Origin: Tubiluchus corallicola
Lineage: Eukaryota; Animalia; Priapulida
DNA: 64,000 bases
NCBI GenBank assembly: GCA_030141605.1
Contig: JAQGDQ010000757.1
Span: forward strand, 37,364 to 101,363
Direction: 5' to 3'
Within the stretch, counting starts at the first letter, position 1. Each line of letters begins with the position of its first letter. Below, one piece after another: positions 17,466-64,000 of this stretch. The notes beneath the pieces were generated by a model that saw nothing but the letters and a program-made list of their open reading frames with translations, made no database searches and was not told the DNA's origin. The translations under genes and the position numbers were made by a program.

Positions 17466-17497
<32 letters not shown>

Positions 17498-23363: not shown

Positions 23364-23365
23364 AG

Positions 23366-32238: not shown

Positions 32239-32266
32239 TTTTAAAAATGGATAATTTTTCTTACAG

Positions 32267-40132: not shown

Positions 40133-40936
40133 GTAATATTATTCTAAGTACTTTGTTAACTAATTACAAAAAATATCAAATCATAGACTTTTAGATGTGG
40201 AACAGTAATAAGCCATAATGAAATGTCTAAATATAATTAGCATGTAAAAATCTGTTATTGAGATAAGGCCAGTTAATTTGATTACATTGAAACACATTAA
40301 TTCACCTGATATGTTACCTTTCTTTACTTTGCATTGATGGAGGATAATTTTTATAAAGGCATTTTATTTTGAATAGCTTTTCTTTTGTTTATGCTACAAA
40401 GGAAGACTTATAAGGTGAGCAGCAAGCACTCTTAGGTTTAAGTTGTCATTTCCAACAGTATACGTATTATTTATTATAAACGATGTTTGCGACTTTATAA
40501 TTACGAAAAACAAATTTACCCACAGAAATGGATATTTTGGTTATTGAACAAGATTGCTGCTGATAAATTTTGTTGTCATGACTGTCTGGGTAACTAGAAA
40601 TCTGAAAAAATCTATGTTTTGAGTGCCTCTTTCCAAACGTTCTAAATGCTACACTTATTGGACGGAATATCATTATGCACAGCAGTGATAGCATTAAAAC
40701 ATCATCTAAATTATTAACATCATTACACTTGTAAAATGATTTTGATTGCCAGAAGATCATTTAACAAATCTGCTTCTCTGTGTAAATTAGAAAAACGAGT
40801 GTTCAATAATATTCCACTGATTCTCATTTAACGTATTTTTGATATACTTATTTCTTTAGCATTAACAGCACCAGAGTGCTAAAATTTCATGAAATCAGTT
40901 CAGAAAGTGGTTATCCTTTAATTTCTTTAATTTAAT

Positions 40937-41347
40937 AAGCCTTCTCGTAGTTTTGCTGTATGCACGTGCAGTTGCTTTTGGTCAAAGGATAAGTGAACGC
41001 AGCATGTCTTAACTGCTACTGTTGTGTGACCTTACCCATGCAACTACAAGTAGCTGAAATGGGTGAAAAACGTGATTATTTTTGTAATTATGCTACACGT
41101 GTATAGTTTAAACTAACAAGTTATTCTCATCCAAAACCAGATAGTAAAATAGCAGCAGCAATCCATGTAAAATGAAATAACTGAAGCAAAAAATTAAGCC
41201 AAGAAGTGTTACTATTACAATAGTGTGGCCACAAGGCATTGTCAAGTGTAAACAAATGCGTTGTTTGGTTCCGACAACATCGTTAGGTTCACCTAACATT
41301 TGACCTTTTCACAATCATCCCCAATCCCTGTAACTGTGAAAAAGCTT
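40937..41347 (+). mobile_element. Non-autonomous DNA transposon (MITE), copy 2
   Basis: at|aagccttc...gaaaaagctt|at; homologous to 19069-19432. Confidence 0.75.
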
Positions 41348-41394
41348 ATTGCTGTACATTTTTCAGATTAAGGTTAATCTGCTGATTCTTGCAG

Positions 41395-41547
41395 AGTTTT
41401 AATAGCGAAGTCGCAATTCGAGAACGAGTCCTCGAGGAACTTTTCTTCGATGGTGAGGCTCTTGATGCTCAGTTACCAGAACATTGTGCAGGCACGATAG
41501 TTGACCAGCTTTCGACTAGATATCAGTTTGTGTATTCAACTGTACAG
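41395..41547 (+). CDS. SYNE1: Exon: spectrin repeat
   Basis: ttgcag / gtttgt; QLSTRYQ. Confidence 0.85.
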
Positions 41548-41950
41548 GTTTGTAAAACCAGTGTAATTCATTCAGATGGTAAACTTATAAAGGTTGGATA
41601 GTTTTAATCATTATAATCGCTTTATTCATTAATGTCAGGCATTATTATTAATGATGCTACAAACCTACAATTAATGAAACCTGGATACCAAACTTGAAAG
41701 ACAGAAAATGTGAAAAGCCTGGATTTGAACCAAGGAGCTTCTGTTAACAAGGCAGATATTCTACCTTAGACCACTAAGTCACCACACTCCTCAGTCTGAC
41801 TTTTAGGATGCGTTTAAATGAAAGCATGTAGTTAAGAAAGAAACTGAAAAAATTGTGTGTTGGTAAACATTCTGAATAAATGAACAACAAAAAAGTAATT
41901 TAGTGCTTCACATTCCAGACAATTTAAAATAATATTATTGCTTTCTACAG

Positions 41951-42100
41951 GCGAATGTTAAAGACTGCACTGCAAATGTTGACGAACACAATGAGTACTT
42001 AGAAGTTTATAAATCACTGGAACTGTGGCTCAATACTGCTGAGGCTACCCTTGCTGCAAGGGATGGAATGTCACCAGAAGAGGAGGAAAGACGTGTACAG
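41951..42100 (+). CDS. SYNE1: Exon: spectrin repeat (ORF track shows wrong frame)
   Basis: VDEHNEYLEVYKSLELWLNTAE; ctacag / gtcagc. Confidence 0.85.
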
Positions 42101-42768
42101 GTCAGCAAAAATATCCACTACAGTATCCCATTTAATTAGTGTACAAATATTTATCTCACCATCATACACATATTTTGCTGCACAGGAATCTACACAGTTC
42201 TCACAAGAATTCTGTACAATTTGTCACAATAAAACCGAATTTAGCATTCTTTGAAAGGCTACTTTTTGTCAGGTAAGGTCGGCTTGTAAGCTTGGCGGGG
42301 CTTCTGTACCTAAGAAGAGTTTGCTGTATTAACAGACACCCCGTTCCTGTAACGAATATGTTCTTTTTTTAGTATTCTTGAATTTGTGACAAGCTTGCAC
42401 AATATTATTTCATCAACATAGTAGTCTCTGAAGTGAAACAGAGGGGTTTGTTGCTTTTGTTATTGTAGGGGTTACTTGTGATATGTGTGAATAATTTCCA
42501 GCTTATTTTAAATTGATTTTTAGAGGGTGGTCATGGTTTTTTAGACGCTTTACCTAACTGGACCATTTCGAAAGTTTTGGTGTGGAACCCTTTACCTACA
42601 TTACATCAATTTAGCAATTGCTTAAAGGACTGTCCCAGATAGTTGTTTTTCATGGCTTTACTAGCTAGAGCTTTGTTATACCATCTCAGTTTTTGTGAGC
42701 TTCAGTTAATATTGTTGTCAAGTTTTTCATAATTTTTGTATTGGTATTTGTATTACTACATTTTGTAG

Positions 42769-43035
42769 GAGTTGTCAGTGAGCATGGACACGGGTCTTGC
42801 TGCTTATAATGCAGCAGTTTCCCTCGGTGAGAAGCTCTATTCTAACACTAATCCTTCGGGATGTGAAGTCATCAGCCAACAGCTTGGTTCTTTTCACGCA
42901 CGCTGGGAGGCTTTGCAATTAAAGTTTGATGAAGCTGGACTGGCTTTCGAGGCATTGCTGGTGCCAGCTGCTAAACCACAGATGCAAGTGGCACTAGATG
43001 CATCTCCTAAAGTAGAACAACTTCAGTCAGAAGAG
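42769..43035 (+). CDS. SYNE1: Exon: spectrin repeat
   Basis: GEKLYSNTNPSGCEVISQQL...RWEAL, a nesprin/Msp300-like motif. Confidence 0.87.
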
Positions 43036-43660
43036 GTAACAAGTCTTTTAAACTATCTTGTGACTTCTTGTTGTTATTGCAATTTATTACGAAAGTGGTA
43101 TTCTATGACTTTGCTCACTGTCTGCTAAAAATAGAACTTTTTACCCCACTAGTTGTAGATAATAAAATTTTATTGCACATACACCTTCAATTATTAAAAG
43201 TAAACGAAGCTGCTAAAATGTATACTTTAGACTTTGTTTAAGTTAATTTCTGTAGTGTTAGCCCTTAAGTTTTAAAATTTGTCGAAACTGCTTCACGTGT
43301 CGTTGTCAATTTTTTCTCTTTTGCTGGGCTTCACATGCAGCTTTTTTAATTTAAGGAGCTGAGCACGTAAAATTTTATTTTGTTGTTGGATGCCCAATCA
43401 AATTTTAGGTATTTGGTGCATTTATTCCACAAGAGTGTGAATTCAAATCCAGTAGCATGATTATAATATAGTCATGCAAATTTATGTTTTTCTTCCAGGA
43501 CTCTACTATCTATTAATACTTACCTGGAATCCAAAGACATCAGCTGATTGACTGACTGCTGGACTTTGTTGATCTTTTTTTTGCATTGCGTAACATTTAT
43601 GTTGTGTTGTTGTGTTTGCTTGCTGTGATTGTTGTCAGTTTTCTGTTGTGCTTTTTACAG

Positions 43661-43777
43661 GCAATGAGCATTAGTCAGGACATTTGTGAACTTGCATCTA
43701 TGGTAGAACAAAGCATGATGAAATTTAGTGAGAAATTTGCTCTGTCCAAAGTCATAGAAGCTGAACAAGAACATCAG
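43661..43777 (+). CDS. SYNE1: Exon: spectrin repeat
   Basis: ttacag / gtaaaa. Confidence 0.78.
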
Positions 43778-44217
43778 GTAAAATAAACGCTTGTGTAGGT
43801 TAAAAATCAACGAAAGTTATTGATTGAAAAATTAATAACTGGCTTCAAATAAGTTTAAATTTGGCTAAAAAAATGAATAATTCCTAAATCAATCTGTTGG
43901 AATATGTCCTTATTAGTGAAATGAAATAAAATTGCATAAGTGATTGTCATTCCCATTATAATTTAATTTATGTAATATTTTACATTTATGTAAAACTCCG
44001 TAAACTTACCAATCTATCATTTTGTGTATAAGCTTCAAAAAGTCTAGCAAGGACTTATCGTTTCATTGTTTTGAACTATTATTGCAATGACTTACAGCTG
44101 TCCTATTAGTGTGGTTTTTCTTATTGTTCAGGTTCTGCTGACTGCATTTTCACGTTGTTTTCTACATATTATTCCTTAGTGCTTGAAAAAGACTCTTGCT
44201 TCACATGGTTGTTACAG

Positions 44218-44346
44218 GTTCTGTGCAAAGATGTTTCTGTTTTACGTGAAAAGTTTGTCGAAATTGAACTTCAAGTCATTCAGCAGTTGTCTGATGAGCT
44301 TGACGTTAAAAATAAAGTTTCATCTCTAGACATGCAAATCTCACAA
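44218..44346 (+). CDS. SYNE1: Exon: spectrin repeat
   Basis: ttacag / gtacgt. Confidence 0.78.
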
Positions 44347-45142
44347 GTACGTTATTTGTGACACAAAAGTTAATTGTAGAATTAGAAAAAATGTCAGTTA
44401 TTATTAGCTTTGTGCTAAATCGTATCAAATATTTTTAGTAAACACATTTTTATCATTCGTAGACCTGGTCTCTGGACGTTAATCAACTCTTGAAAAGTTT
44501 ATAGCAAACTATATAGAATAGAGCTCAGTTAATTTTTTAAATTTTACTTACAGTTTTTTTTGTCTTTTTGCTGTCTTCACTGTTTACTTATTCATCTGTT
44601 CTAGACTTTTAATTAGTCAGTAGTGGCTAGTTGCTTTAGTTAGTACTGTAGAATTTTGCAAACAGTTACTTTGCAAAAAACTAAATGTTTTGTGTTGAAT
44701 GTTCTACTAAAACTTTTTAATTATAGTCAGTATTCGTGAATTGCTGTAATTTTTATAACTTTGAATGTGTGTAAATTAACTTTATGTTGTGTGTTAATTT
44801 TATATTTTATGTTTTGCTGCTAGGTTGGATGAATAAATCAAACAAAATTACAAAATTATCCAAATTATAGGTTTCAACATAAAATAATTTTCAATTTTTT
44901 GTTCAATTAGGCAAATGCTTTTGCTAGAATGAAGCTCGTGTGTTGTACATTATCTTTAATTTTTTTATTACAATTATAATTTTTTAAGAAATTAGTTTTG
45001 AGTTTTTTGCTGTGTTGTCATTTACAGAGTTTTTTTGCTCATATCTACTGTATCCGTTTCTAGATATTAAAGAACTGTTTTAATTGTATTACCTTGTTGA
45101 GGTGTCATCTAAAGACAGACATTAAAAAAATGAATTGCATAG

Positions 45143-45322
45143 GTGGAAAATGTAGCTGACATTAAAAGAAAGCACTTGAGTGAAGCTAAAGAAGTGTGGA
45201 ATCTGTACGAGGAATTTTGCTCTTCCACCAGTGAATGGAGGAAAAACTTGGAAAATGTTATTTTCACGGATGTGTCAGTCGATGATTCTAAGCACCTTGA
45301 ACTACAGCTAAAGCAACATGAG
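45143..45322 (+). CDS. SYNE1: Exon: spectrin repeat
   Basis: catag / gttgtt; EVWNLYEEF...SEWRKNL. Confidence 0.82.
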
Positions 45323-45376
45323 GTTGTTTATAATTTATAATTCTCATCAAAGATGTTTGTCTCCGAACATTCTTAA

Positions 45377-45764
45377 AGGAAAACAGGATAATTTTTCATT
45401 TTTAATATCCTACCCCATCGTGAAGTATGGTAAAATAATGCCCAAGCCATTTCTCATAATTAAACAATAGCTTAGAAATTGAATTGACCTACTAATGATG
45501 ACATCACAACCGAAGACAATTTTTAACAGCACAAACATTTCATGAGTGTTTGTGAAAACGAAAATTGAACTATAGTACTACTGTACAACATTCAGTGTGA
45601 TATATAAAAACTTGGCAAATTTTAAGTAAAATTAAAAGCAAAATTACCATTCTGTGATAATAATTCGTTCAGATAACTCAGTCTTGAAAATATAGTGTTT
45701 CCTTTCAATATTTTATTGGGTAGATTGTTTTGAGCCATAGTTTAAGATTGGGTCCGGTTTTCTT
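45377..45764. mobile_element. TTAA-flanked MITE (Kolobok-like termini)
   Basis: ttaa|aggaaaacagga ... tccggttttctt|ttaa (10/12 TIR match). Confidence 0.65.
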
Positions 45765-46273
45765 TTAAATTTCATAGTCGTATGACTGGGTTTAAGGTCG
45801 AGTAGCCTCATGTGTTTTTGACCACCTGGGTTCCATACTCTCTTTGGTTTCATTTGCTGATTTGGGTTGTTTACCTCGTAGAGGGGGATATATGCTCAGC
45901 CGAATTGGCTAAGACAGCTCTGCCGGATCATCTTAGAAGGTTATCGTTGTTATCGACCTAGGCTCCGGTCATGCCACAAACATTACTTTGAGTAGGCCTT
46001 GCTATTCAATGCTGCTCCTAGTGCTCAGCATGTAAAATGAAAAGTGCTGAAATATATAAAAATTTCTGTTGTGTCAAACACTTGTTCAGTTTTTTTCAAT
46101 TAATATACACCAGCATTGTTATTTTTATTATATTAAGTTTACTAATAGACTGCAGTTCTATAGTATTGAATGTGTAATCCGTGGTATAGGATTTATAAGA
46201 TAATGAGTACAAGCTTTCTAAGCACCAGAGTTTCAATTAGTAATAAAAATAATTAGTAAGGTTTTTTTGTTAG

Positions 46274-46414
46274 GTTATTCTCTTCGAATCTGTACAACTT
46301 TTGCAAAAGTTGGAGCACCTAAACAACACTGTAGACCAGCTTACGATTTTTCCTGATATTAATGTTGTTGGGGAAAAGGTGAGGCTATCCGAAATGAACA
46401 AAGAAATAACTGAG
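46274..46414 (+). CDS. SYNE1: Exon: spectrin repeat (not in ORF track)
   Basis: VILFESVQLLQKLEHL...EMNKEITE; ttag / gtaatt. Confidence 0.78.
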
Positions 46415-47186: not shown

Positions 47187-48860
47187 CTTAAAACATCATT
47201 GGAACAAAGAAATGCAACATTGAAAGAAAAGTTGGTAGCAATGCAGGAGTCCTTTGATTCTTTTGCTGCTGACCTTGATGCAAAGAATGTCACAAAACTT
47301 CATCTGTTCTTGGAACCACTAGTGGACAATGTGACCGATGAAACAATTCCAGCTTTAGTTGAAGACGTGGTGGAAGGAATTTTAGATTCACCAGAAGAAC
47401 AAGCTGCGTTTAAGTCTTCTGAACCAGCATCTCCTGACGAAATAGGATACTACAGCATGGAAACTTCCTTGCAAGAGCCATCTCATATAATTGCACTTGA
47501 CGACACACAAATCAGTGGTGTGACATTTGATGAGCTCTCTGATGCCGTTTTAGGCACAGTGATTGGCCAAGAAAGCTTGGCATCGTCAGGAGTTAGTTTT
47601 CTTCCGTCACGGTCAACTCTTGATTCTGTAACTGTTATTGGCACCAGTATGGAGGACTCTTTTCTAGGAGTTGAGATGCTGGAGGAGTTTCTGGAGACAG
47701 ATGACAACCGTGCTTTGTCTGTCGTGCAAGAAAATGTTGAGGAAGATGTAGGCACACAGGAGAAAGCAGTCGATGCTTCTTTGCACGAAGGTGATCAACA
47801 ATTGAATCTTGTGCATTTAGAAAAACTAGAAAAGAAAGACGCTGATGCCTTAGAACAAACATCTTTTGCTTCAGAGGATGGTGAGGCCTTGGAAATCAGC
47901 TTGGAACTATCACAGTCTTCAATGGATCATGCAACTATGAATGACACGAGCATTGAGGACTCAATTACTGACATAGAGGTGTTAGAAGACATTCCAGAAA
48001 CAGTATGTGATGGCTTCATCAGGCTTGCTGAAGGTGAATTAACCACGGAAGTTAAAGCAACTAGTTTTTTTGAAAACGATGTTAAAAGCACATCTGATAA
48101 TAAAGTGCAAGATGAATTTGCCATAAAAGAAAGCATTAGTAGTATTAGTAATATCGAAGATCTAAGTCTGTCGATGGTTGCGTTGCCTGAAGCTGAATAT
48201 GGAGAACAGTTTGAGAGAATTGATCCTAACATTATAATGTGGACTGAAGAATCAGTTAAACAACAAGATTTCAACAGAGGTGATGAAGTTTTCAAACAAG
48301 CAAAAGAACTGGATTCTGGTGAAGTATGCTTAGATGAAATGCCTGGAGATAAAGAATTTCAAGAAATCATTGGTGATGGGGAAAGATCCCATGAGCAGTT
48401 TAGGCTCGCTGCTAAAGATGACACTTTTAAAGGTTTTGTAATAATTGAAGGTGAAAAACCTGATATGGATGATTCCTTGGCATTATCATCACCTGATTCT
48501 AATATTGCATCTGAAATGACCAGTTCATTTGTGATCATTGATGATATTGACAGACATAGCACAGCTATTGCTGATATTGATGTTGAAGAAAAGTCAGATA
48601 GCTGGCCTCTAGCTCAGCTACTTGATAGAAATCTTGCTATTTCAGCCGAGAGCAAGCATACACCGTCTTCATTTTTAGTGGAAAGTGATGATGTGCCCAA
48701 GCAGTCTGCTCTTCCTGTAGATGGAATGAGAGAGAAAGGTGTTGCAGACCAGTACTGGGACAGTAGTGAGCCTAAAGTACCTTCCAGAGAGAATCAACAT
48801 GAAGTATATGTGCTTCATGAAGGAAAGGATGTTCTACCAGAACAACGTGCAGATGAAAAG
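47187..48860 (+). CDS. SYNE1: Large acidic disordered exon (558 codons, phase 0-0)
   Basis: tttcag acceptor, aag|gttggt donor, uninterrupted E/D/S-rich frame. Confidence 0.87.
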
Positions 48861-49047: not shown

Positions 49048-50346
49048 ATAACCGATGTTGTTTCTGGAGATGTTGAAACAATGCAGCCTACTTCTTCGCT
49101 GCTATTGAGTAATGCGTCAAATGGGGCACTTGGCAGGATGGAAGAACAAAACAAAAAGCACATTGAGGAGGCATTTGCAATAGAAGTTTTGGATGACTCT
49201 TCCGAGGATGTTGTCTGTAAGAATGATCTACCTTTCAAAGACGATGAAATCAGTTATCAAAACATAAGTGACTACTTTGATGATTTTATCATAATTGATA
49301 ACCATGAACCCATTGTAGTTTGCAAGCAGAAAACTGAACGTGATATTGGAGAATTTATAATGTCACCATCAGCTAAAATGAATGAATCCCATAATGAACT
49401 AGCAGAAATTGTTGTAAGTAAAATAACAGAGACAAATGAGGTCGAAACAGATAATTTAGAGCAAGTTTCAGAATTGTGTAGTCCGAATTGGGAGATTGAA
49501 GGTTCATCTGAATTTAAAATCAAAGATTCTCAAGGTGTAAAATCTCAAGAAATTGAAATCATTAAAATAGAGCATGATGTAAAAGTAAAGGAAGAGGAAA
49601 TTTTAACAACTATTGAACAAATTGAAACTATGCTGGATGGGGAAAACAGAGATACTAGTGAAAGAGTATATATATCTAGTAATGTTGCAAAAGGAGAAGA
49701 AACTGCTACAGAATTGATAGAAAACACAATGAAAAGAACAGAATCACTATCTGAAGTTACTACCACTGAAGTAATAGAAGATCAAGTCGCCATATTAATA
49801 AAAGAAATAAGCACAGACGTTTTGGTGAACGAGGCAGGAAGAATCGTAAAAGATACCAAAAAAGAGATAGATGTGAATGGCAGCACCGCTAGTGTAAAAA
49901 TCAATTTGGATGACCAAAAAGTACAACCAGTTTTTGTAGGCACTGTTGACGTCAGTGAAACAGAGACTGATGGAGAGAACCAACCAACCACCACTAAATT
50001 TATGGAAGACAGTCAACGAGTTGATGATGCAGATATTCCACGGGAAGAAGATGTAGTCACAGTCGCTGTTATTGTTAAAGCAAATGATCTTGATCAATCA
50101 ATACTTGAAAGTGAAAGTGTACCAGCTGTAAAATCGATGCGTGCAGTTATTGATGGTGATATCAAACAAGGTGATGTGGACAGGAAAGCTGATCGTGCTT
50201 TAAGCAAAATCTTAACAGAGCCAGTTGTTACCCAAAAGGAAGTAGCAGAAACTGATGGTAACCTTGAGATAGAAATCTCTGATAGCATGGATTTGATTGC
50301 TACCCCATTAGCCAGTATAGAAGCTACCATTACCAAGAAACCCCAG
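49048..50346 (+). CDS. SYNE1: Large acidic disordered exon (433 codons, phase 0-0)
   Basis: cttag acceptor, cag|gtaatt donor. Confidence 0.87.
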
Positions 50347-50954
50347 GTAATTAGTCCCAGTTTTTTTCCTAATCTGTTTTTTTTCAAAGAGTTGGTGTGT
50401 AAATTTAAACAGTTGTAGGATTTGTCAAACTGTTTATTCAATGATTGTCATTGATTAATTTCTTCTATAGTTGCAGTGCTAAGATTTTAATTTCAAGGTG
50501 TTTAATTTTTTCTGGCATGTTTTACGTCTTTATCCTAAATTTCATCAGAATATTGATTTTAGAAAAAATGCTTTCTTCATTGTTTAGTTGTTTTTTTTCA
50601 TTAGTTTAGTTAATTAAGTTATTTTACATAATTTGTTTTCTACATTGTATTTGCAAATTGTAACCTGAGAAGGTCCAGTGATGTCATTTTATTCATTGTT
50701 GCACTAGAGCAAAAACAGTTTAAGTATTACTATTTGCCTATAATTTATAATTTAAGGCACTATTAAAACTAGAGTGCCAAAACATAGCCAAAATTCTTTT
50801 TCAAAAACAGCCAAAATTATTTGGAGAAAAAGTGGGCAGTTGTTTCAAATTTAAAGTCCCAAAACTTATTGGGTAACTGAAGGCACTTCATGAACTGTAT
50901 ATTTAAAAATATTTCAAAGTATTATTTATTGTTTTGTTGTATACTGTATTTCAG

Positions 50955-53900
50955 ATTCTTGAAGAAGGAAATACTATTCAAGATGTTGAACAAGGTAAAT
51001 CCTTCGATGGTTTATTAAACGTAGCAGAAAACTCGGTTAGAACAAAAAAGAAAAGAAAGAAAAAACACACAAGGGGAAAGCAGAAAAGTACAATGGGTAC
51101 TGTTAAAGAAGTAAAAGATATTTTTATGGATATTCCCATTGAGTCTGAATTTCAAGATTTGGTTCAGTTTGAAGTTTGTCAGTGTCCCAAAAGAAAAAGG
51201 ACAAAATCAGGGAAAGCAAAGGTTTTATGCCAGAGTAAGAATGACATCAGGGAAGCTGGAGCAAAAACATTGCCCAAAGTAGCAGACGATACAAGCTGTA
51301 ATGCTTCAGATACTGAAAACAGAACTGGAGGATTGATATTAACACAGGTTTCAGTTCTGCAAACTGTGACACACGATGTTTGCCCTGAACTAGTTCTGCC
51401 TTTTGATAACATCATTAGCAAGCAGGAGGTGTCTAAGAAGAAAATGAAAAGAAGGAAACGAAAACGGAAGAAAAAGAAAACGTTTGATAAATTATTACTT
51501 GAGCATGTATTAAAACACCCTCAAGATATGATGCCTCGTCAAAAACATCATCACAAAATGCTACATGGGAAAATTGATTGCTTAGATGGTACTTTCATTA
51601 GCTTAGAGTCACCAACAGCAATTAACAAAAGTGATTACAGTTTCATTGCATGTAAACACTTAAACACAAACCTAATTGCAGAAAAGGTTAATGAGTTCGA
51701 AAAACTGCTAGTCAGGGTAGGTGTTACTCATGAAAGAGAGGATGATTTAAAAATATCAAGCATTGATGATAGTATTACAAACAGTGCACCTTCTTTTTCT
51801 GCAGAAATACAACCCGAAAATTTGGACCAACGGACTACTTTTGATGCTATTAACAAAGATGTTTCTTTCAAAGATGTGGATTTCAAGGAACGTGAGTTTT
51901 CTAAAAAGGCTTCTAATTCTGGAATACCGGAGCAGCTTTTTAATGATTCACCAAAATCACATGAGGAGGGAGCTGATACTGGTTGTGCTAACCTGCCATT
52001 TTCAGTGTTTGAAAAATCTCCTGATGAATTTGTGTTAGAGGAAGCAGTTGACATTGAGCTGCAATTTGAAATTGATGATGGACAAGAAAGAAACATCCAA
52101 CAATTTGACCCCTACAAACACAGCTTCTTGGCAGACCACGAGACAAGTCACACTGAATCTGTTTATGAAGAAAGCATTAGTATTGAAGCAGAAGTAGAAA
52201 TCACATTGCCCAAGGATGCCAGTGCTGGTGCTGAGGCTAGGATTGTAAATAAAGAAAGTAGTGAAAAAGACAAAGATATTCCCAGCCTAATCAGCATTGA
52301 GGAACCAGAAAAAATTATTAAAAAAGATGTTATGCACTTGCCTGAAGAAGCTGATTGTGAACTGCCTGGTCCAGAATATCCAGCAGGGCAGGTAATATTG
52401 CCTGACGACATTATGTTAATGCCTAAAGAACTTGATCATGAACTGGCTGCTGCCGAAGTTGCCGCAGAGGTAGAGCATATATCGTTATTTGAAAATGTTG
52501 CACAATTGTCGAAAGAAGTGGCACTTGAATTAGCTGCTGCAGAATTCAAGAGAGATATTGAGCAGGTGGCATTGTCCAATGATGTTACTGTAATGCCTCA
52601 TGAATTTGATCTGGAATTGACTGCTGCAGAACTTCCGACAGAAGCTGATCTGACAGTGTTGTATGAAGGTGATATGCTGATGTCTGAAGAACTTGATCTT
52701 GAAATGGCAGCACAGCAACCTACAACTGCTGCATTGATGGAAAGGTCTAAAGATGTAAAGCAAGTGTCTAAAGAAATCATACTTGAATTAGCTGCTGTCG
52801 AATTTCCAAAAGAGGCTGAACTGACATTATTATGTGAAGATGTTATGCTAATGCCTGAAGAAGTAGAACTCGAATTAACTGCTGCAGAATTTGAGACAAA
52901 TGTTGAGAAGAATTCTTTGTCCAAAGATATCACACTAATGCCTAAAGTATTTGATCTTGAATTGGCTGCTGCAGAACTTCCAGTAAAGGCTGAACTGATG
53001 TTATTGGCTGCAGATGTTTCACTAAGACCCAAAGAAGTTGAACTTGAATTCACTGCTGCAGAATATTCAACAGGGCAAAATTTATTGTCTGACATTGGTA
53101 TGCTAATGCCTAAAGAACTTGATCTTGAACTGGCTGCTGCAGAACGTCCAACAGAGGCAGAGCATGTTGCATTGTTCGAAAATGCTATGCAAATACCTAA
53201 GGAAGTGGAACTTGAATTAGCTGCTACAGAACTTGAGAATGCTGTTGATCAGGTTACATCACCTAGGCATGTTTCTCTCATGTCTAAAGAATTTGATCTT
53301 GAATTGGTGGCTGCAGAACTTCCGACAGATGTGCAATTGCCAGTATTGTCTGAAGACATGCTAATGCCTGCAGAACTTAATCTAGATTTGGCTGTTGCAG
53401 AACAACCAACAGAGGGAGACCATGTTGTGTTGTTTGAAAATGAAACTCTAATGCCTAAAGAAGTGGAACTTGAATTAGCTGCTACAGAACTTGAGAATGC
53501 TGTTGATCAGGTTACATCACCTAGGCATGTTTCTCTCATGTCTAAAGAATTTGATCTTGAATTGGCTACTGCAGAACTTCCGACAGATGCTGAACTGACA
53601 GTATTGTCTGAAGATGGGGTAATGTATGCAGAACTTGATCTTGAGTTGGCTGCTGGAGAACGTCCAACAGAGACAGAGCATGTTGCATTATTCGAAAATG
53701 CTATGCAAATACCTAAGGAAGTGGAACTTGAATTAGCTGCTACAGAACTTGAGAATGCTGTTGATCAGGTTACATCACCTAGGCATGTTTCTCTCATGTC
53801 TAAAGAATTTGATCTTGAATTGGCTGCTGCAGAACTTCCGACAGATGTGGAATTGCCAGTATTGTCTGAAGACATGCTAATCCCTGCAGAACTTAATCTA

Positions 53901-56900
53901 GAGTTGATTGTTACAGAACAACCAACAGAGGGAGACCATGTTGTGTTGTTTGAAAATGAAACTCTAATGCCTAAAGAAGTGGAACTTGAATTAGCTGCTA
54001 CAGAACTTGAGAATGCTGTTGATCAGGTTACATCACCCAAACATGTTACTCTTTCCTCTAAAGAATTTGATCTTGAATTGGCTGCTGCAGAACTTCNCGA
54101 CAGATGTGGAATTGCCAGTATTGTCTGAAGATGGGGTAATCCCTGCAGAACTTAATCTAGAGTTGATTGTTACAGAACCTCCAACAGAGGGAGACCATGT
54201 TGTGTTGTTTGAAAATGAAATTCTAATGCCTAAAGAAGTGGAACTTGAATTAGCTGCTACAGAACTTGAGAATGCAGTTGATCAGGTTACATCACCTAGA
54301 CACGTTACCTTTATGTCTAAAGAATTTGATCTTGAATTGGCTGCTGCAGAACTTCCGACAGATGTGGAATTGCCAGTATTGTCTGAAGACATGCTAATCC
54401 CTGCAGAACTTAATCTAGAGTTGATTGTTACAGAACCTCCAACAGAGGGAGACCATGTTGTGTTGTTTGAAAATGAAACTCTAATGCCTAAAGAAGTGGA
54501 ACTTGAATTAGCTGCTACAGAACTTGAGAATGCAGTTGATCAGGTTACATCACCTAGACACGTTACCTTTATGTCTAAAGAATTTGATCTTGAATTGGCT
54601 GCTGCAGAACTTCCGACAGATGTGGAAGTGCCAGTATTGTCTGAAGACATGCTAATGCCTGCAGAACTTAATCTAGATTTGGCTGTTGCAGAACAACCAA
54701 CAGAGGGAGACCATGTTGTGTTGTTTGAAAATGAAACTCTAATGCCTAAAGAAGTGGAACTTGAATTAGCTGCTACAGAACTTGAGACTGCTGTTGATCA
54801 GATTGCACCACCCAAACATGTTACTCTTTCCTCTAAAGAATTTGATCTTGAATTGGTGGCTGCAGAACTTCCGACAGATGTGCAATTGCCAGTATTGTCT
54901 GAAGACATGCTAATGCCTGCAGAACTTAATCTAGATTTGGCTGTTGCAGAACAACCAACAGAGGGAGACCATGTTGTGTTGTTTGAAAATGAAACTCTAA
55001 TGCCTAAAGAAGTGGAACTTGAATTAGCTGCTACAGAACTTGAGAATGCTGTTGATCAGGTTACATCACCTAGGCATGTTTCTCTCATGTCTAAAGAATT
55101 TGATCTTGAATTGGATACTGCAGAACTTCCGACAGACGCTGAACTGACAGTATTGTCTGAAGATGGGGTAATGTATGCAGAACTTAATCTTGAGTTGGCT
55201 GCTGCAGAACGTCCAACAGAGACAGAGCATGTTGCATTATTCGAAAATGCTATGCAAATACCTAAGGAAGTGGAGCTTGAATTAGCTGCTACAGAACTTG
55301 AGATTGCTGTTGATCAGATTGCATCATCCAAACATGTTACTCATATGTTTAAAGAATTTGACATTGAATTGGCTGCTGAAGAACTTCCGACAGATGTTGA
55401 ATTACCAGTATCATCTGAACATGTGATAATGCCTGCAGAACTTAATCTAGAGTTGGCTGTTGCAGAACATCCAACAGAAGCAGAACATCTTGCATTATTG
55501 GAACATGTAAAGCTAATGCCTAAAGAAGTAGAACTTGAATTAGCTGCTACAGAACCTGAGACTGCTGTTGATCAAGTTGCATCACCTAAACATGTCACTC
55601 TTATATCTAAAGAAATGGATCTTGAATTGGCTGCTGCAGAACTTCACACAGATTTTGAATTTCCAGTATTGTCTGAAGACATGCTAATGCCTGAACTTGA
55701 AATAATGTCTGCTGAGGCTGAACATGTGGTTCTGTCTGATGTTGAACTGCCTGAGCTGGTTAGTGCTGGCAAAGATATTGAACAAGTAACCAAAGAAGTT
55801 GTCGAAGAGCATGGTGACATTCCTGATTTGGTTACTTTGGACAAATCGGTTGCTGTTATTTTAGATGATGCTACCTTAATGCCCAAAGATGTTGAGCTTG
55901 AGATAACATTTGCTGAGACACAACAAGTTGTCCTGTCTGATGTTGAACTGCCTGAGCTGGTTATCGCTGGTGAGGATGTTGAACAAGTAACCAAAGAAGT
56001 TGTTGAAGAGCTTGATGATATTCCTGATTTGGTTACTGTGGACAAATTGGTTGCTGTTATTTTAGATGATGCTACCTTAATGCCCAAAGATGTTGAGCTT
56101 GAAATAATAGCTCGTGAACTGCAGCCTGAGGCAGAAGACATTGTCCTGTCTGATATTGAACTGCCTGAACTGGTTAGTGTTGGTGAGGATATTGAACAAG
56201 TAACCAAAGAATGTTGTCGAAGAGCTTGATGATATTCCTGATTTGGTTGCTGTAGACGAATCTGTTGATGTTATTTTAGATGATGCTACCTTAATGCCCA
56301 AAGATGTTGAGCTTGAAATAACATCTACTGAGGCAGAACAGGTTGTCCTTTCTGACGCTAAACAGCCTGAGTTGGTTAGTACTGGCGAAGATATTGAACA
56401 AGTAACCAAAGAAGTTGTCGAAGAGCGTGATGATATTCCTGATTTGGTTGCTGTAGACGAATCTGTTGATGTTATTTTAGATGATGCTACCTTAATGCCC
56501 AAAGATGTTGTGCTTGAAATAACGTCTGCTGAGGCAAAACAGGTTGTCCTGTTTGATGCTGAACTGCCTGAAGCTGGTTATCGCTGGTGGGGATATTGAG
56601 CAGGTAACCAAAGATGTTGTCGAAGAGCTTGATGATATTCCTGATTTGGTTGCTGTAGACGAATCAGTTGATGTTATTTTAGATGACGCTACCTTGATGC
56701 CCAAAGATGTAGAGCTTGAAATAACATTTGCTGAGGCAGAACAGGTTGTCCTGTCTGATGTTGAACTGCCTGAACTGGTTATCGCTGGTGAGGATATTGA
56801 ACAAGTAACCAAAGATGTTGTTGAAGAGCTTGATGATATTCCTGATTTGGTTGCTGTGGATGCATCAGTTGATGTTATTTTAGATTATGCTACCTTAATG

Positions 56901-59900
56901 CCCAAAGATGTACAGCTTGAAATAACATCAGCTGAGGTAGAACAGGTTGTCCTATCTGATGCTGAACTGCCTCAACTGGTTATTGCTGGTGAGGATATTG
57001 TACAAGTAACCAAAGATGTTGTCGAAGAGCTTGATGATATTCCTGATTTGGTTGCTGTAGACGAATCAGTTGATGTTATTTTGGATGACGCTGCCTTGAT
57101 GCTCAAAGATGTAGAGCTTGAAATAACAACTTGTGAACTGCCGGCTGAAGCAGAACAGGTTGTCCTTTCTGATGTTAAACAGCCTGAGTTGGTTAGTACT
57201 GGCGAAGATATTGAACAAGTAACCAAAGAAGTTGTTGAAGAGCGTGATAACATTCCTGATTTGGTTCCTGTGGGCGAATCACTTGATTTTATTTTAGATG
57301 ATGCTACCTTAATGCCCAAAGATGTACAGCTTGAAATAACATCTACTGAGGCAGAACAGGTTGTCCTGTCTGATGCTGAACTGCCTCAACTGGTTATTGC
57401 TGGTGAGGATATTGAACAAGTAACCAAAGATGTTGTCGAAGAGCTTGATGACATTCCTGATTTGGTTACCGTGGACGAATCACTTGATGTTATTTTAGAT
57501 GATGCTACCTTAATGCCTAAAGATGTACAGCTTGAAATAACATCTGCTGAGGTAGAACAGGTTGTCCTGTCTGATGCTGAACTGCCTCAACTGGTTATTG
57601 CTGGTGAGGATATTGAACAAGTAACCAAAGATGTTGTCGAAGAGCTTGATGATATTCCTGATTTGGTTGCTGTAGACGAATCAGTTGATGTTATTTTGGA
57701 TGACGCTGCCTTGATGTCCAAAGATGTTGAGCTTGAAATAACGTCTGCTGAGGTAGAACAGGTTGTCCTGTCTGATGTTGAACTGCCTCAAGTGGTTATT
57801 GCTGGTGAGGATATTGAACAAGTAACCAAAGAAGTTGTCGAAGAGCATGATGACATTCCTGATTTGGTTACTGTGGACGAATCAGTTGATGTTATTTTAG
57901 ATGATGCTACCTTAATGCCCAAAGATGTTGTGCTTGAAATAACGTCTGCTGAGGCAAAACAGGTTGTCCTGTTTGATGCTGAACTGCCTGAAGTGGTTAT
58001 CGCTGGTGGGGATATTGAGCAGGTAACCAAAGATGTTGTCGAAGAGCTTGATGATATTCCTGATTTGGTTGCTGTAGACGAATCAGTTGATGTTATTTTA
58101 GATGATGTTACCTTGATGCCCAAAGATGTAGAGCTTGAAATAACAGCTCGTGAACTGCCGGCTGAAGCAGAACAGGTTGTCCTGTCTGATATTGAGCTGC
58201 CTGAACTGGTTATTGCTGATGAGGATATTGAACAAGTAACCAAAGAAGTTGTCGAAGAGCATGATGACATTCCTGATTTGGTTACTGTGGACAAATCGGT
58301 TGCTGTTATTTTAGATGATGCTACCTTGATGCCCAAAGATGTAGAGCTTGAAATAACAGCTCGTGAACTGCCGGCTGAAGCAGAACAGGTTGTCCTGTCT
58401 GATATTGAGCTGCCTGAACTGGTTATCGCTGGTGAGGATATTGAACAAGTAACCAGAGAACTTGTCAAAGAGCATGATGACATTCCTGATTTGGTTACCG
58501 TGGACAAATCGGTTGCTGTTATTTTAGATGATGCTACCTTAATGCCCAAAGATGTTGAGCTTGAAATAACATCTGCTGAGGCAGAACATGTTGTTCTTTC
58601 TGATGCTAAACAGCCTGAGTTGGTTAGTACTGGTGAAGATATTGAACAAGTAACCAAAGAAGTTGTCGAAGAGCATGATAACATTGCTGATTTGGTTCCT
58701 GTGGGCGAATCACTTGATTTTATTTTAGATGATGCTACCTTAATGCCCAAAGATGTACAGCTTGAAATAACATCTACTGAGGCAGAACAGGCTGTCCTGT
58801 CTGATGATGAACTGCCTCAACTGATTATTGCTGGTAAGGATATTGAACAAGTAACCAAAGATGTTGTCGAAGAGCTTGATGACATTCCTGATTTGGTTGC
58901 TGTAGACGAATCAGTTGATGTTATTTTGGATGACACTGCCTTGATGCCCAAAGATGTAGAGCTTGAAATAACAGCTCGTGAACTGCCGGCTGAAGCAGAA
59001 CATGTTGTTCTGTCTGATGTTGAACTGTTTGAACTGGTTAGTGCTGGTCAGGATATTGAACAAGTAACCAAGGAAGTTGTCAAAGAGAATGATGACATTC
59101 CTGATTTGGTTACTGTGGACGAATCAGTTGATGTTATTTTAGATGATGCTACCTTAATGCCCAAAGATGTTGTGCTTGAAATAACGTCTGCTGAGGCAAA
59201 ACAGGTTGTCCTGTTTGATGCTGAACTGCCTGAAGTGGTTATCGCTGGTGGGGATATTGAACAGGTAACCAAAGATGTTGTCAAAGAGCTTGATGATATT
59301 CCTGATTTGGTTGCTGTAGACGAATCAGTTGATGTTATTTTGGATGACGTTACCTTGATGCCCAAAGATGTAGAGCTTGAAATAACAGCTCGTGAACTGC
59401 CGGCTGAAGCAGAACAGGTTATCCTGTCTGATATTGAGCTGCCTGAACTGGTTATCGCTAATGAGGATATTGAACAAGTAACCAAAGAAGTTGTCGAAGA
59501 GCATGATGACATTCCTGATTTGGTTACTGTGGACAAATCGGTTGCTGTTATTTTAGATGATGCTACCTTGATGCCCAAAGATGTGGAGCTTGAAATAACA
59601 GCTCGTGAACTGCCGGCTGAAACAGAACAGGTTGTCCTGTCTGATATTGAGCTGCCTGAACTGGTTATCGCTGGTGAGGATCTTGAACAAGTAACCAGAG
59701 AACTTGTCAAAGAGCATGATGACATTCCTGATTTGGTTACCGTGGACAAATCGGTTGCTGTTATTTTAGATGATGCTACCTTAATGCCCAAAGATGTTGA
59801 GCTTGAAATAACATCTGCTGAGGCAGAACAGGTTGTCCTTTCTGATGCTAAACAGCCTGAGTTGGTTAGTACTGGCGAAGATATTGAACAAGTAACCAAA

Positions 59901-62900
59901 GAAGTTGTGGAAGAGCGTGATGACATTCCTGATTTGGTTCCTGTGGCCGAATCACTTGATGTTATTTTAGATGATGCTACCTTAATGCCCAAAGATGTAC
60001 AGCTTGAACTAACATCTACTGAGGCAGAACAGGCTGTCCTGTCTGATGCTGAACTGCTTCAACTGGTTATTGTTGGTGAGGATATTGAACAAGTAACCAA
60101 AGATGTTGTCAAAGAGCGTGATGACATTCCTGATTTGGTTCCTGTGGACGAATCAGTTGATGTTATTTTAGATGATGCTACCATGATGCCCAAAGATGTT
60201 GAGCTTGAAATAATAGCTCGTGAACTGCAGCCTGAGGCTGAACATGTGGTTCTGTCTGATGTTGAACTGCCTGAACTGGTTAGTGCTGCTGAGGATATTG
60301 AACAAGTGACCAAAGATGTTGCTGAAGACCTTGATGATATTCCTGATTTGGTTGCTGTGGATGCATCAGTTGATGTTATTTTAGATGATGCTACCTTAAT
60401 GCCCAAAGATGTTGAGCTTGAAATAACATCTGCTGAGGCAGAAGTTGTCCTTTCTGATGCTGAACTGCCTCAACTGGTTATTGCTGGTGAGGATATTGAA
60501 CAGGTATCCAAAGATGTTGTCGAAGAGCTTGATGGTATTCCAGATTTGGTTGCTGTAGACGAATCTGTTGATGTTATTTTGGATGATGCTACCTTGATGC
60601 CCAAAGATGTTGAGCTTGAAATAATAGCTCGTGAACTGCAGCCTGAGGCTGAACATGTGGTCCTGTCTGATGCTGAACTGCCTGAACTGGTTAGTGCTGC
60701 TGAGGATATTGAACAAGTAACCAAAGTTGTTGCTGAAGAGCTTGATAATATTCCTGATTTGGTTGCTGTGGATGCATCAGTTGATGTTATTTTAGATGAT
60801 GCTACCTTAATGCCCAAAGATGTTGAGCTTGAAATAACATCTGTTGAGGCAGAACAGGTTGTCCTGTCTGATGTTGAACTACCTGAACTGGTTATCGCTG
60901 GTGAGGATATTGAACAGATAACCAAAGATGTTGTCGAAGAGCTTGATGATATTCCTGATTTGGTTGCTGTAGACGAATCAGTTGATGTTATTTTGGATGA
61001 TGCTAATATGATGCCCAAAGATGTACAGCTGGAAAAAACAGCTCATGAACTGCAGGCTGAGGCTGAACATGTTGTTCTGTCTGATGTTGAACTGCCTGAA
61101 CTGGTTAGTGCTGGTGAGGATATTGAACAAGTAACCAAGGAAGTTGTCAAAGAGGATGATGACATTCCTGATTTGGTTACTGTGGACGAATCAGTTGATG
61201 TTATTTTAGATGCTGCTACCTCGATGCCCAAGCATGTAGAGCTTGAAATAATAGCTCGTGAACTGCAGCCTGAGGCTGAACATGTGGTTCTGTCTGATGT
61301 TGAACTGCCTGAACTGGTTAGTGCTGCTGAACATATTGAACAAGTGAGCAAAGATGTTGCTGAAGAGCTTGATGATATTCCTGATTTGGTTGCTGTGGAT
61401 GCATCAGTTGATGTTATTTTAGATGATGCTACCTTAATGCCCAAAGATGTTGAGCTTGAAATAATAGCTCGTGAACTGCAGCCTGAGGCTGAACATGTTG
61501 TTCTGTCTGATGTTGAACTGCCTGAACTGGTTAGTGCTGGTGAGGATATTGAACAAGTAATCAAGGAAGTTGTCAAAGAGGATGATGACATTCCTGATTT
61601 GGTTACTGTGGACGAATCAGTTGATGTTATTTTAGATGATGCTACCTTAATGCCCAAAGATGTTGTGCTTGAAATAACAGCTCGTGAACTGCCTGCTGAA
61701 GCAGAACAGGTTGTCCTGTCTGATATTGAGCTGCCTGAACTGGTTATCGCTGATGAGGATATTGAACAAGTAACCAAAGAAGTTGTCGAAGAGCATGATG
61801 ACATTCCTGATTTGGTTACTGTGGACAAATCGGTTGCTGTTATTTTAGATGATGCTACCTTGATGCCCAAAGATGTGGAGCTTGAAATAACAGCTCGTGA
61901 ACTGCCGGCTGAAGCAGAACAGGTTGTCCTGTCTGATATTGAGCTGCCTGAACTGGTTATCGCTGGTGAGGATATTGAACAAGTAACCAGAGAACTTGTC
62001 AAAGAGCATGATGACATTCCTGATTTGGTTACCGTGGACAAATCGGTTGCTGTTATTTTAGATGATGCTACCTTAATGCCCAAAGATATTGAGCTTGAAA
62101 TAACATCTGCTGAGGCTGAACATGTTGTTCTCTTTGATGTTGAACTGCCTGAACTGGTTAGTGCTGGTGAGGATATTGAACTAGTAACCAAGGAAGTTGT
62201 CAAAGAGGATGATGACATTCCTGATTTGGTTGCTGTGGATGCATCAGTTGATGTTATTTTAGATGATGCTACCTTTATGCCCAAAGATGTACAGCTTGAA
62301 ATAACATCTGCTGAGGCAGAACAGGTTGTCCTGTCTGATATTGAGCTGCCTGAACTGGTTATCGCTGGTGAGGATATTGAACAAGTAACCAGAGAACTTG
62401 TCAAAGAGCATGATGACATTCCTGATTTGGTTACCGTGGACAAATCACTTGATGTTATTTTAGATGATGCTACCTTAATGCCCAAAGCTGTACAGCTTGA
62501 ACTAACATCTACTGAGGCAGAACAGGCTGTCCTGTCTGATGCTGAACTGCCTCAACTGGTTATTGCTGGTGAGGATATTGAACAAGTAACCAAAGATGTT
62601 GTCGAAGAGCGTGATGACATTCCTGATTTGGTTCCTGTGGGCGAATCAGTTGAAGTTATTTTAGATGCTGCTACCTCGATGCCCAAAGATGTAGAGCTTG
62701 AAATAATAGCTCGTGCACTGCAGCCTGAGGCTGAACATGTGGTTCTGTCTGATGTTGAACTGCCTGAACTGGTTAGTGCTGCTGAGGATATTGAACAAGT
62801 TACCAAAGATGTTGCTGAAGACCTTGATGATATTCCTGATTTGGTTGCTGTGGATGCATCAGTTGATGTTATTTTAGATGATGCTACCTTAATGCCCAAA

Positions 62901-64000
62901 GATGTTGAGCTTGAAATAACATCTGCTGAGGCAGAAGTTGTCCTTTCTGATGCTGAACTGCCTCAACTGGTTATTGCTGGTGAGGATATTGAACAGGTAT
63001 CCAAAGATGTTGTCGAAGAGCTTGATGATATTCCTGATTTGGTTGCTGTAGACGAATCTGTTGATGTTATTTTGGATGATGCTACCTTAATGCCCAAAGA
63101 TGTTCAGCTTGAAATAACATCTGCTGAGGCAGAACAGGTTGTCCTGTCTGATGTTGAACTACCTGAACTGGTTATCGCTGGTGAGGATATTGAACAAGTA
63201 ACCAGAGAACTTGTCAAAGAGCATGATGACATTCCTGATTTGGTTACCGTGGACAAATCGGTTGCTGTTATTTTAGATGATGCTACCTTAATGCCCAAAG
63301 ATGTTGAGCTTGAAATAACATCTGCTGAGGCAGAACAGGTTGTCCTTTCTGATGCTAAACAGCCTGAGTTGGTTAGTACTGGCGAAGATATTGAACAAGT
63401 AACCAAAGAAGTTGTCGAAGAGCGTGATGACATTCCTGATTTGGTTCTTGCGGCCGAATCACTTGATGTTATTTCAGATGATGCTACCTTAATGCCCAAA
63501 GATGTACAGCTTGAACTAACATCTACTGAGGCAGAACAGGCTGTCCTGTCTGATGCTGAACTGCCTCAACTGGTTATTGCTGGTGAGGATATTGAACAAG
63601 TAACCAAAGATGTTGTCGAAGAGCTTGATGACATTCCTGATTTGGTTACCGTGGACGAATCACTTGATGTTATTTTGGATGATGCTACCTTGATGCCCAA
63701 AGATGTTGAGCTTGAAATAATAGCTCGTGAACTGCAGCCTGAGGCTGAACATGTGGTTCTGTCTGATGTTGAACTGCCTGAACTGGTTAGTGCTGCTGAG
63801 GATATTGAACAAGTAACCAAAGATGTTGCTGAAGAGCTTGATGACATTCCTGATTTGGTTACTGTGGACGAATCAGTTGATGTTATTTTAGATGATGCTA
63901 CCTTAATGCCCAAAGATGTTGAGCTTGAAATAACATCTGCTGAGGCAGAACAGGTTGTCCTGTCTGATGCTGAACTGCCTCAACTGGTTATCGCTGGTGA
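50955..64000 (+). CDS. SYNE1: Giant exon (at least 13 kb, about 4,350 codons) with coding tandem arrays; three apparent +1 assembly errors
   Basis: tttcag acceptor in phase 0. The frame is open except for +1 breaks at 54097, about 56211 and about 56573, and runs off the window end. Confidence 0.8.
52332..55686 (+). repeat. Coding array A: 28-29 aa monomers forming an 86-aa (258-bp) higher-order repeat
   Basis: MPKEVELELAATELENAVDQVTSPRHVSL / MSKEFDLELAAAELPTDVELPVLSEDML / MPAELNLDLAVAEQPTEGDHVVLFENETL; spacing 53237 to 53495 = 258 bp. Confidence 0.95.
55687..64000 (+). repeat. Coding array B: about 40 units of 198/201/213 bp (66/67/71 aa)
   Basis: MPKDVELEITSAEAEQVVLSDVELPELVIAGEDIEQVTKDVVEELDDIPDLVAVDESVDVILDDATL; ATG spacing 56294 to 56495 = 201 bp. 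Confidence 0.95.

What the first reader, a model, noticed from the sequence alone, without database searches (positions are those of the whole stretch)
50955..64000. Giant (at least 13 kb) single exon inserting a novel repeat polypeptide of over 4,300 aa into a nesprin
Seen: one acceptor, then continuous coding sequence to the window end. Unit-length variants are multiples of 3 and I saw no stops despite many substitutions, which argues for selection on translation rather than satellite DNA. The ORF track omits 56.6-64 kb, consistent with no stop being reached. Established: insect Msp300 and giant ankyrins have giant repetitive exons. Inference: the repeats match no family I recognise and are not classical PEVK, so this may be an independently evolved giant elastic or scaffold module of the LINC complex. 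This is the best candidate for a new system in the window.
Basis: partly seen in the sequence, partly recalled or inferred. Interest (0 to 1): 0.85.

Follow-up and report, generated by a model that had tools for sequence, protein, structure and literature searches.

The report
Giant acidic repeat exon in nesprin
An invertebrate's nuclear-anchor gene (nesprin) carries at least 13 kb of reading-frame-preserving DNA made of about 80 acidic protein repeats with no detected relatives, which is likely spliced in as one giant exon and would add a micrometre-scale charged spacer, a new version of a design already known from the fruit-fly gene.

Summary
Partly confirmed. The host gene is a nesprin-1/Msp300 orthologue. 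A phase-0 acceptor at 50955 matches the phase-0 donor at 50346. A 457-codon head follows, then two related acidic arrays: A (about 39 units of 28-29 aa) and B (about 40 units of 66-71 aa, running off the window). As assembled it is not one frame: three single extra bases (54097, about 56212, about 56573) split it into four ORFs. They look like assembly slips: one is an N, two are hybrids of sister-unit alleles, and contigs of two other runs lack the one base tested. The frame is under selection: 0 of 136 B variants create a stop (3.7 expected), while the five other frames gain stops as expected. No homologue was found and AlphaFold2 gave no confident fold. No RNA junction was seen, and a strong in-frame donor at 52391, at the start of the arrays, suggests they are optional. 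The design is known: fly Msp300-PE/PG carry two lineage-specific acidic repeat types and worm ANC-1 has six macro-repeats. This scan noted repeat-filled giant nesprin exons in two other genomes. New variant of a known kind.

The parts
518..1092 (+). Second calponin-homology (actin-binding) domain of the nesprin, two predicted exons (518-714, 980-1092) joined by a GC-AG intron
   Evidence: Pfam CH E 5e-15; best database hits are nesprin-1/Msp300 at 55-68% identity; collinear tblastn; model
1420..46414 (+). Spectrin-repeat rod, 44 predicted exons, about 2,500 helical residues (roughly 24 or more repeats; some exons probably missed)
   Evidence: Pfam Spectrin_SYNE1 E 1e-11 and 5e-11 on consecutive exons 5190-5395 and 6012-6173; first 900 model residues align collinearly with mollusc, tick, fish and bird nesprins, E 1e-95 to 1e-125; ab initio model
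20556..21514 (+). 959-nt acidic non-spectrin exon inside the rod (predicted)
   Evidence: net charge -0.19 per residue; no Pfam hit
47187..48860 (+). 1,674-nt acidic, non-repetitive exon (predicted), phase 0-0
   Evidence: a 15-nt in-frame insertion in run X1
49048..50346 (+). 1,299-nt acidic, non-repetitive exon (predicted), phase 0-0; its donor is the partner proposed for the giant exon
   Evidence: donor score 7.3
50347..50954 (+). 608-nt AT-rich GT-AG intron (predicted)
   Evidence: acceptor score 5.0, weaker than 38 of the 48 model acceptors
50955..52326 (+). Unique 457-codon head of the giant exon with three Lys/Arg-rich clusters (about 51045-51070, 51190-51225, 51435-51480); near-neutral overall
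   Evidence: a 6-nt in-frame insertion at 51422 in run X1
52389..52397 (+). Candidate internal phase-0 donor after 52391 that would end the exon at the start of the arrays
   Evidence: score 6.8, matched by 8 of 47 model donors; no internal site this strong in 11,419 nt of upstream model exons (the model selects for strong donors, so that control is biased)
52327..55690 (+). Array A: about 39 monomers of 28-29 aa, degenerate at the 5' end, then organised as an 86-aa trimer (258 nt); net charge -0.19 per residue
55692..64000 (+). Array B: about 40 units of 67, 71 or 66 aa (201, 213, 198 nt), 85% alike, open at the window end; net charge -0.25 per residue; 828-nt block duplicated at 97% identity 3,507 nt apart
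54097..54097 (+). Extra base 1: the window's only N, absent from 8 sister units; likely assembly slip
56210..56212 (+). Extra base 2: both alleles that sister units carry at one position stand side by side; likely assembly slip
   Evidence: absent from all contigs crossing the place in X1 (3) and X2 (3)
56571..56574 (+). Extra base 3: same hybrid pattern; likely assembly slip, not tested against other runs

Best explanation
The 13 kb hold a frame-preserving block of two related acidic repeat arrays directly behind a nesprin's spectrin rod, likely spliced in as one optional giant exon whose product is predicted to be a long, mostly unfolded, negatively charged spacer that would hold the nucleus or other membranes apart from the cytoskeleton and would offer many binding sites for basic partners, as proposed for fly Msp300-PE/PG. 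Shown: nesprin identity; compatible splice phases; two arrays; selection against stops; descent of A and B from one 29-aa unit; block duplication. Inferred: the three extra bases are assembly errors; the block is one exon joined to 50346; the donor at 52391 lets transcripts leave before the arrays; growth was by unequal crossing-over; selection keeps frame, length and charge more than sequence. Predicted and untested: disorder, elasticity (contour about 1.6 micrometres for 4,347 residues at 0.36-0.38 nm, a recalled value), partners, and a downstream transmembrane or KASH end.
For: Nesprin. Phase-0 donor and acceptor, frame opening 48 nt before the acceptor, in a gene where 39 of 48 model exons end in phase 0. 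It follows two other large acidic exons. Selection: 0 of 136 B variants make a stop, 3.7 expected, P 0.007; other five frames as expected; the antisense frame that is open in the consensus has 15 stops; synonymous 43 vs 33 expected, P 0.01; pairwise dN/dS 0.46 (B) and 0.60 (A); A 0 of 94, 2.6 expected. 37 of 39 B units are multiples of 3. In run X1 (DNA of another haplotype) 2 of 2 listed exonic indels keep frame against 2 of 8 intronic (few events). Extra bases: N, and two hybrids each matched by 4.2% of all possible insertions; 6 of 6 contigs crossing 56210-56213 lack the base. Run X2 (guessed RNA, same species label, other study) holds 10 contigs of B-type units, one with a 42-nt in-frame shorter unit. 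A and B related: HHalign 95%, E 3e-8. No fold: pLDDT 30 (B) and 57 (A), pTM 0.18-0.19. Precedent: PMC11230431, PMC8616381, PMC8139857, PMC4442817.
Against: No read or contig joins 50346 to 50955, and none ties the arrays to rod exons. The acceptor is weak (38 of 48 model acceptors score higher). The X2 contigs are 33-108 nt, its RNA label is a guess, and they could come from sister units elsewhere in the genome (no genome held). Selection is weak: variant-level dN/dS about 0.67, and amino-acid changes are no more conservative than random (BLOSUM -0.18 vs -0.18). A and B fall just on the folded side of the charge-hydropathy boundary (0.499 vs 0.482; 0.510 vs 0.502) and the alignments given to AlphaFold2 were shallow, so disorder is not established. 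Only one of three extra bases was tested, and probably against sister units. Function rests on analogy.
Confidence: 0.6

Rival explanations
1. The arrays are coding but are made mainly from an internal promoter, or as a terminal exon, giving a CH-less and/or KASH-less nesprin isoform like Msp300-PE rather than an insertion into the full CH-rod-KASH protein.
For: Fly isoforms E, G and M start at an internal exon and alone carry exon 28; PE lacks CH and KASH (PMC8616381, PMC11230431). The acceptor is weak and no downstream donor is in the window.
Against: Phase match with the upstream exon chain, which runs without a stop from the CH domain to 50346 in the model. No promoter or terminal feature was looked for or can be seen.
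Confidence: 0.17
2. The repeats fold into a chain of small, cation-stabilised domains (a stiff scaffold), as AlphaFold 3 suggested for the fly repeats, rather than an unfolded spacer.
For: 43% aliphatic residues in B, both arrays just on the folded side of the charge-hydropathy line; strand-type periodicity in A and helix-type in B above shuffles (copies not independent); beta-sandwich predictions for Msp300-PE repeats (PMC11230431).
Against: pLDDT 30 and 57; non-conservative substitutions tolerated; the model's secondary structure disagrees with the periodicity test (helix in A, strands in B).
Confidence: 0.1
3. The extra bases are real: this allele truncates the protein 1,057 residues into the exon and most of the array is a decaying coding relic.
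For: Three frame breaks within 2.5 kb in the assembled sequence; weak purifying selection.
Against: One break is an N, two are allele hybrids (4.2% each by chance); the 7.4 kb behind the breaks have no stop although 3.7 are expected; six contigs lack the tested base.
Confidence: 0.05
4. The exon ends at the donor after 52391 and the arrays are an intronic satellite, or belong to a separate repeat-protein gene, that happens to stay in frame.
For: The 52391 donor is strong and in phase; homogenised arrays inherit an open frame from their founder unit (one antisense frame is also open in the consensus).
Against: That antisense frame has gained 15 stops from 5 variants while the sense frame has none; length variants are 3n; the arrays grade out of the unique head in the same frame.
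Confidence: 0.08

Closest known systems
Drosophila Msp300-PE/PG (exon 28) repeat region; PMC11230431 (passages, section 5 and Discussion read), PMC8616381 (passages read)
   Same: Nesprin-1 orthologue; two kinds of tandem repeat in one very large coding block; overall negative charge; lineage-restricted sequence; only some isoforms carry it, and E, G and M share exon 28 only in part.
   Different: Units are 108 aa x 20 and 101 aa x 19 with no similarity to each other; here 28-29 aa x about 39 and 66-71 aa x at least 40, related to each other. No sequence link was detected (indirect test only). The fly isoforms lack CH domains and are shown to organise a perinuclear MTOC; nothing of that is shown here.
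C. elegans ANC-1 repeats; PMC8139857 (passages read)
   Same: Nesprin orthologue lengthened by homogenised coding tandem repeats; copy number matters for nuclear anchorage.
   Different: Six 903-aa units, almost identical in DNA, predicted spectrin-like helical bundles that replace the rod; here short 78-85% alike acidic units added behind an intact rod.
Giant-exon ankyrins (AnkG 7.8-kb exon; PMC12798937, search listing and start of abstract only)
   Same: One very large exon turns a cytoskeletal adaptor into a giant isoform.
   Different: Other gene family; the exon here is at least 13 kb and is mostly tandem repeat.
Titin PEVK segment (recalled, not fetched)
   Same: Long, charged, low-complexity repeat region proposed to act as an entropic spring.
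   Different: P+E+V+K only 37-40% and Pro 5-6% here, against about 70% recalled for PEVK; strongly acidic, aliphatic-rich, no Ig or Fn3 domains.

Membership tests
Giant nesprin (nesprin-1/Msp300/ANC-1), host gene | N-terminal calponin-homology pair | tested here: met
   CH2 found at 518-1092; CH1 lies upstream of the window and was not seen
Giant nesprin (nesprin-1/Msp300/ANC-1), host gene | Nesprin-type spectrin-repeat rod collinear with orthologues | tested here: met
   PF25034 on consecutive exons; 900-1,100 residues collinear, E to 1e-125
Giant nesprin (nesprin-1/Msp300/ANC-1), host gene | C-terminal transmembrane helix and KASH peptide | not testable with these tools
   Beyond the window; no genome held. 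No transmembrane-like stretch in the exon so far (highest 19-residue hydropathy 1.34)
Msp300-PE/PG-type repeat module | Two types of negatively charged tandem repeat in a giant coding block of a nesprin locus | tested here: met
Msp300-PE/PG-type repeat module | Sequence homology to Type 1 (108 aa) or Type 2 (101 aa) repeats | tested here: inconclusive
   B profile against 1.84 billion representatives found only a bacterial protein at E 3e-5; head plus A found nothing among 7,976 candidates of 1,834-5,000 aa. Unit lengths differ. Whether the fly protein is in the searched sets is unknown, and its repeat sequences stand in a figure that is not held
Msp300-PE/PG-type repeat module | Internal promoter, few spectrin repeats, perinuclear MTOC function | not testable with these tools
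   needs transcripts and cell biology
ANC-1-type repeats | Near-identical 900-aa helical-bundle units | tested here: not met
   units 28-71 aa, 78-85% identical, no spectrin hit
Titin PEVK | Dominance of Pro, Glu, Val, Lys (about 70%, recalled) | tested here: not met
   36.8% (A) and 39.6% (B)
Giant single exon | One acceptor and one donor with spliced reads at both ends | tested here: inconclusive
   acceptor plausible; no junction read; 3' end outside the window; internal in-frame donors present

The most novel reading that the evidence does not exclude
Animal nesprins have an old mid-rod slot for a giant optional exon that each lineage refills with its own unrelated polyanionic repeats, so that length and charge, not sequence, carry the function; here a 29-residue unit was amplified twice, in nested periods, into a micrometre-scale tether whose inclusion is switched by a donor at the edge of the array, and which organises microtubules or spaces organelles as fly Msp300-PE does.
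Probability: 0.3. Interest if true: 0.68.

Novelty: new variant of a known kind. Interest (0 to 1): 0.42.

Why it matters
The function of the fly Msp300-PE repeats is unknown and they have no homologues outside Drosophila. A second, unrelated pair of acidic arrays in a nesprin of another phylum makes a direct test possible: if these units can replace the fly repeats, the module works by charge and length. The locus also preserves the steps by which a giant exon grows (monomer, trimer, longer unit, block duplication), and shows how such exons are broken by assembly slips and lost from annotation.

Tried and rejected
No genome is held for this window, so the 3' end, KASH exon and other copies of the units could not be sought. 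Run search on 47100-52400: no RNA holder listed. Run X2 left 33000-52400 without cover except one 44-nt repeat match; this blank is used neither for nor against expression or an internal promoter. X1 proved to be DNA (contigs run through introns and past the 50346 donor), so it gives no junctions. Homologue searches with a rod exon (0 of 74 candidates) and with the head plus array A (0 of 7,976 candidates) were blank; both are weak evidence. The one hit of the B profile, P0103, is a bacterial repeat surface protein (E 3e-5, best single stretch 10 bits): rejected as compositional. Pfam hits on the arrays (DUF1492, CoV_NSP15_N, PTHB1_GAE, DUF4298) have 0 stretches passing alone and come from summing repeats: rejected. 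ESM Atlas gave only unnamed hits under 0.9 with low recognition. Fold searches were not run because both models are of low confidence. A tree of 16 N-terminal fragments left the window on a long unresolved branch outside vertebrates and flatworms, so the priapulid origin suggested by earlier notes is neither confirmed nor refuted; Pecten and Ixodes rows were dropped as too short. The upstream acidic exons carry no convincing A or B units. A cluster look-up of 8 unnamed proteins returned no names. A strong phase-1 donor at 50994 (40-nt exon) was considered and left open; it does not fit the mostly phase-0 neighbours. Literature searches for a description of this exon or of priapulid nesprin found none.
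Full report
Observation. I read 49.5-64 kb and listed stop-to-stop frames with the standard code. The donor after 50346 and the acceptor before 50955 are both phase 0, and the frame opens only 48 nt before the acceptor. Behind it lie a 457-codon unique head with three Lys/Arg clusters, array A (52327-55690, about 39 monomers of 28-29 aa, later as an 86-aa trimer) and array B (55692 to the end, about 40 units of 67, 71 or 66 aa). As assembled, translation stops at 54128.

The three breaks. The first is the window's only N, at 54097, absent from 8 sister units. At the second and third, two alleles that different sister units carry at one position stand side by side, so that removing either gives a common unit. 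Of all 30,444 possible single insertions into the 37 in-frame B units, 1,292 (4.2%) have this property; it is what a consensus of mixed reads would produce (inference). I laid two public runs on the unit with the second break: the 3 contigs of X1 and the 3 of X2 that cross 56210-56213 all lack the base (depth with the gap equals total depth at 56213). They are probably sister units, and contigs drop rare variants, so this is support, not proof; the third break was not tested. Without the three bases the exon holds 4,347 codons to the window end.

Selection. Leaving out the two shifted units, the 37 B units show 136 distinct substitutions; none makes an in-frame stop, against 3.7 expected from the same spectrum (P = 0.0066, 20,000 draws). 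The other five frames gain 7, 9, 5, 10 and 5 new stops against 7.5, 6.8, 3.9, 11.4 and 6.2 expected, and an antisense frame that is open in the consensus has 15 stops in the array. Synonymous changes are 43 against 33.3 (P = 0.010). For 9 A trimers (the N-bearing one and the degenerate 5' units left out) 0 of 94 make a stop, 2.6 expected. Against a strong reading: dN/dS is 0.46 and 0.60 pairwise but about 0.67 per variant, and replacements are no more conservative than random. Selection keeps the frame and composition more than the sequence. Run X1, DNA of another haplotype, shows 10 listed indels in 33-52.4 kb: 2 of 2 in predicted exons keep frame (15 and 6 nt), 2 of 8 in introns do; too few to weigh much.

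Host gene. Pfam finds a CH domain at the window start and Spectrin_SYNE1 on consecutive exons (49 frames scanned). The CH2 exon's named hits are mostly nesprin-1 and Msp300 (102 of 157 candidates passed). An ab initio chain of 48 exons runs without a stop from 518 to 50346 (3,950 aa), and its first 900 residues align collinearly with mollusc, tick, fish and bird nesprins (E to 1e-125). About 2,500 helical residues precede three large acidic exons (47187-48860, 49048-50346, 50955 on); a fourth sits at 20556-21514. The tree does not place the animal beyond 'not vertebrate, not flatworm'; earlier notes on this genome say priapulid, which I could not test.

Is it one exon of the nesprin? Not shown. 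The acceptor is plausible but weak (38 of 48 model acceptors score higher). A donor after 52391 is in phase 0, is matched by only 8 of 47 model donors, and lies in the first degenerate unit; no internal site of that strength occurs in 11,419 nt of upstream model exons, though the model favours strong donors as ends. It would give a 479-codon exon without the arrays. In the fly, isoforms E, G and M share exon 28 only in part (PMC8616381, passages), which is a similar arrangement in outline. Run X2, guessed to be RNA, of the same species label and another study, holds 10 contigs of B-type units, 33-108 nt where shown, one of which jumps 42 nt to the next unit start, a 14-codon shorter unit not present in the window. 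This hints at transcription of B units but cannot tie them to this locus.

What the repeats are. No credible relative: the B profile met one bacterial protein at E 3e-5 among 1.84 billion, head plus A met none, the Atlas gave only weak unnamed hits. A and B are related (HHalign 95%, E 3e-8 over 75 columns): the first part of a B unit is an A monomer. An 828-nt block recurs at 97% identity 3,507 nt on. The history is therefore monomer, trimer, longer unit, block duplication, most likely by unequal crossing-over (inference). Net charge is -0.19 (A) and -0.25 (B) per residue, P+E+V+K 37-40%. AlphaFold2 gives pLDDT 30 and 57 from shallow alignments; both arrays sit just on the folded side of the charge-hydropathy line, so disorder is the likelier but not the settled reading.

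Mechanism. I commit to an optional giant exon that adds a long polyanionic spacer and multivalent scaffold behind the rod (0.6). Shown: gene, phases, arrays, selection, ancestry of units. Inferred: assembly slips, splicing, optional use. By analogy only: elasticity (MSP300 filaments stretch 1.2-fold in muscle, PMC4442817, passages) and binding of basic microtubule regulators (proposed for Patronin, PMC11230431, Discussion). Rivals: internal-promoter or terminal isoform (0.17), folded domain chain (0.10), intronic satellite or separate gene (0.08), real truncation (0.05).

Comparison and novelty. Fly Msp300-PE has about 20 copies of a 108-aa and 19 of a 101-aa repeat, negatively charged and found only in Drosophila, and is needed for the perinuclear MTOC (PMC11230431; passages, section 5 and Discussion read). 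ANC-1 has six 903-aa repeats whose number matters (PMC8139857, passages). The window's block works like the former in design, but sequence membership could not be tested directly: the fly units stand in a figure that is not held, and supplements of that preprint were not seen. Eight searches found no description of this exon; PMC7055005 (one passage) added nothing. This scan has noted repeat-filled giant nesprin exons in two other genomes and a giant IQGAP exon in this one; these are unchecked notes. Verdict: a real, selected, new repeat family in a known kind of module; interest 0.42.

Noticed in passing
window 714-980: The intron inside the CH2 domain has a GC donor (GC-AG); homologue alignments are contiguous across it.
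   Followed up: partly
window 20556-21514: A 959-nt acidic, non-spectrin exon (phase 1-0) interrupts the rod about 1,260 residues after CH2; no family hit.
   Followed up: partly
window 35384-36172, minus strand: 261-aa retrotransposon gag-like frame (Pfam Retrotrans_gag E 0.008, below cut-off) in the longest intron of the model (2,884 nt).
   Followed up: no
window 45725-45768: Short high-copy intronic repeat: 49 contigs of run X1 pile up here.
   Followed up: no
window 51045-51480: Three Lys/Arg-rich clusters in the exon's head, resembling nuclear-localisation or microtubule/membrane-binding patches (resemblance recalled), directly before a 3,900-residue polyanion; an intramolecular charge pairing is possible.
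   Followed up: no
window 50994: Strong phase-1 donor 40 nt after the acceptor (score 6.4); could make a micro-exon if a phase-1 acceptor exists downstream.
   Followed up: partly
window 56254-56295: Run X2 holds a B unit that lacks these 42 nt (14 codons); the junction is not in the window and is not GT-AG.
   Followed up: partly
window 24432-24612: Two 90-nt tandem copies at 98% identity in an intron.
   Followed up: no
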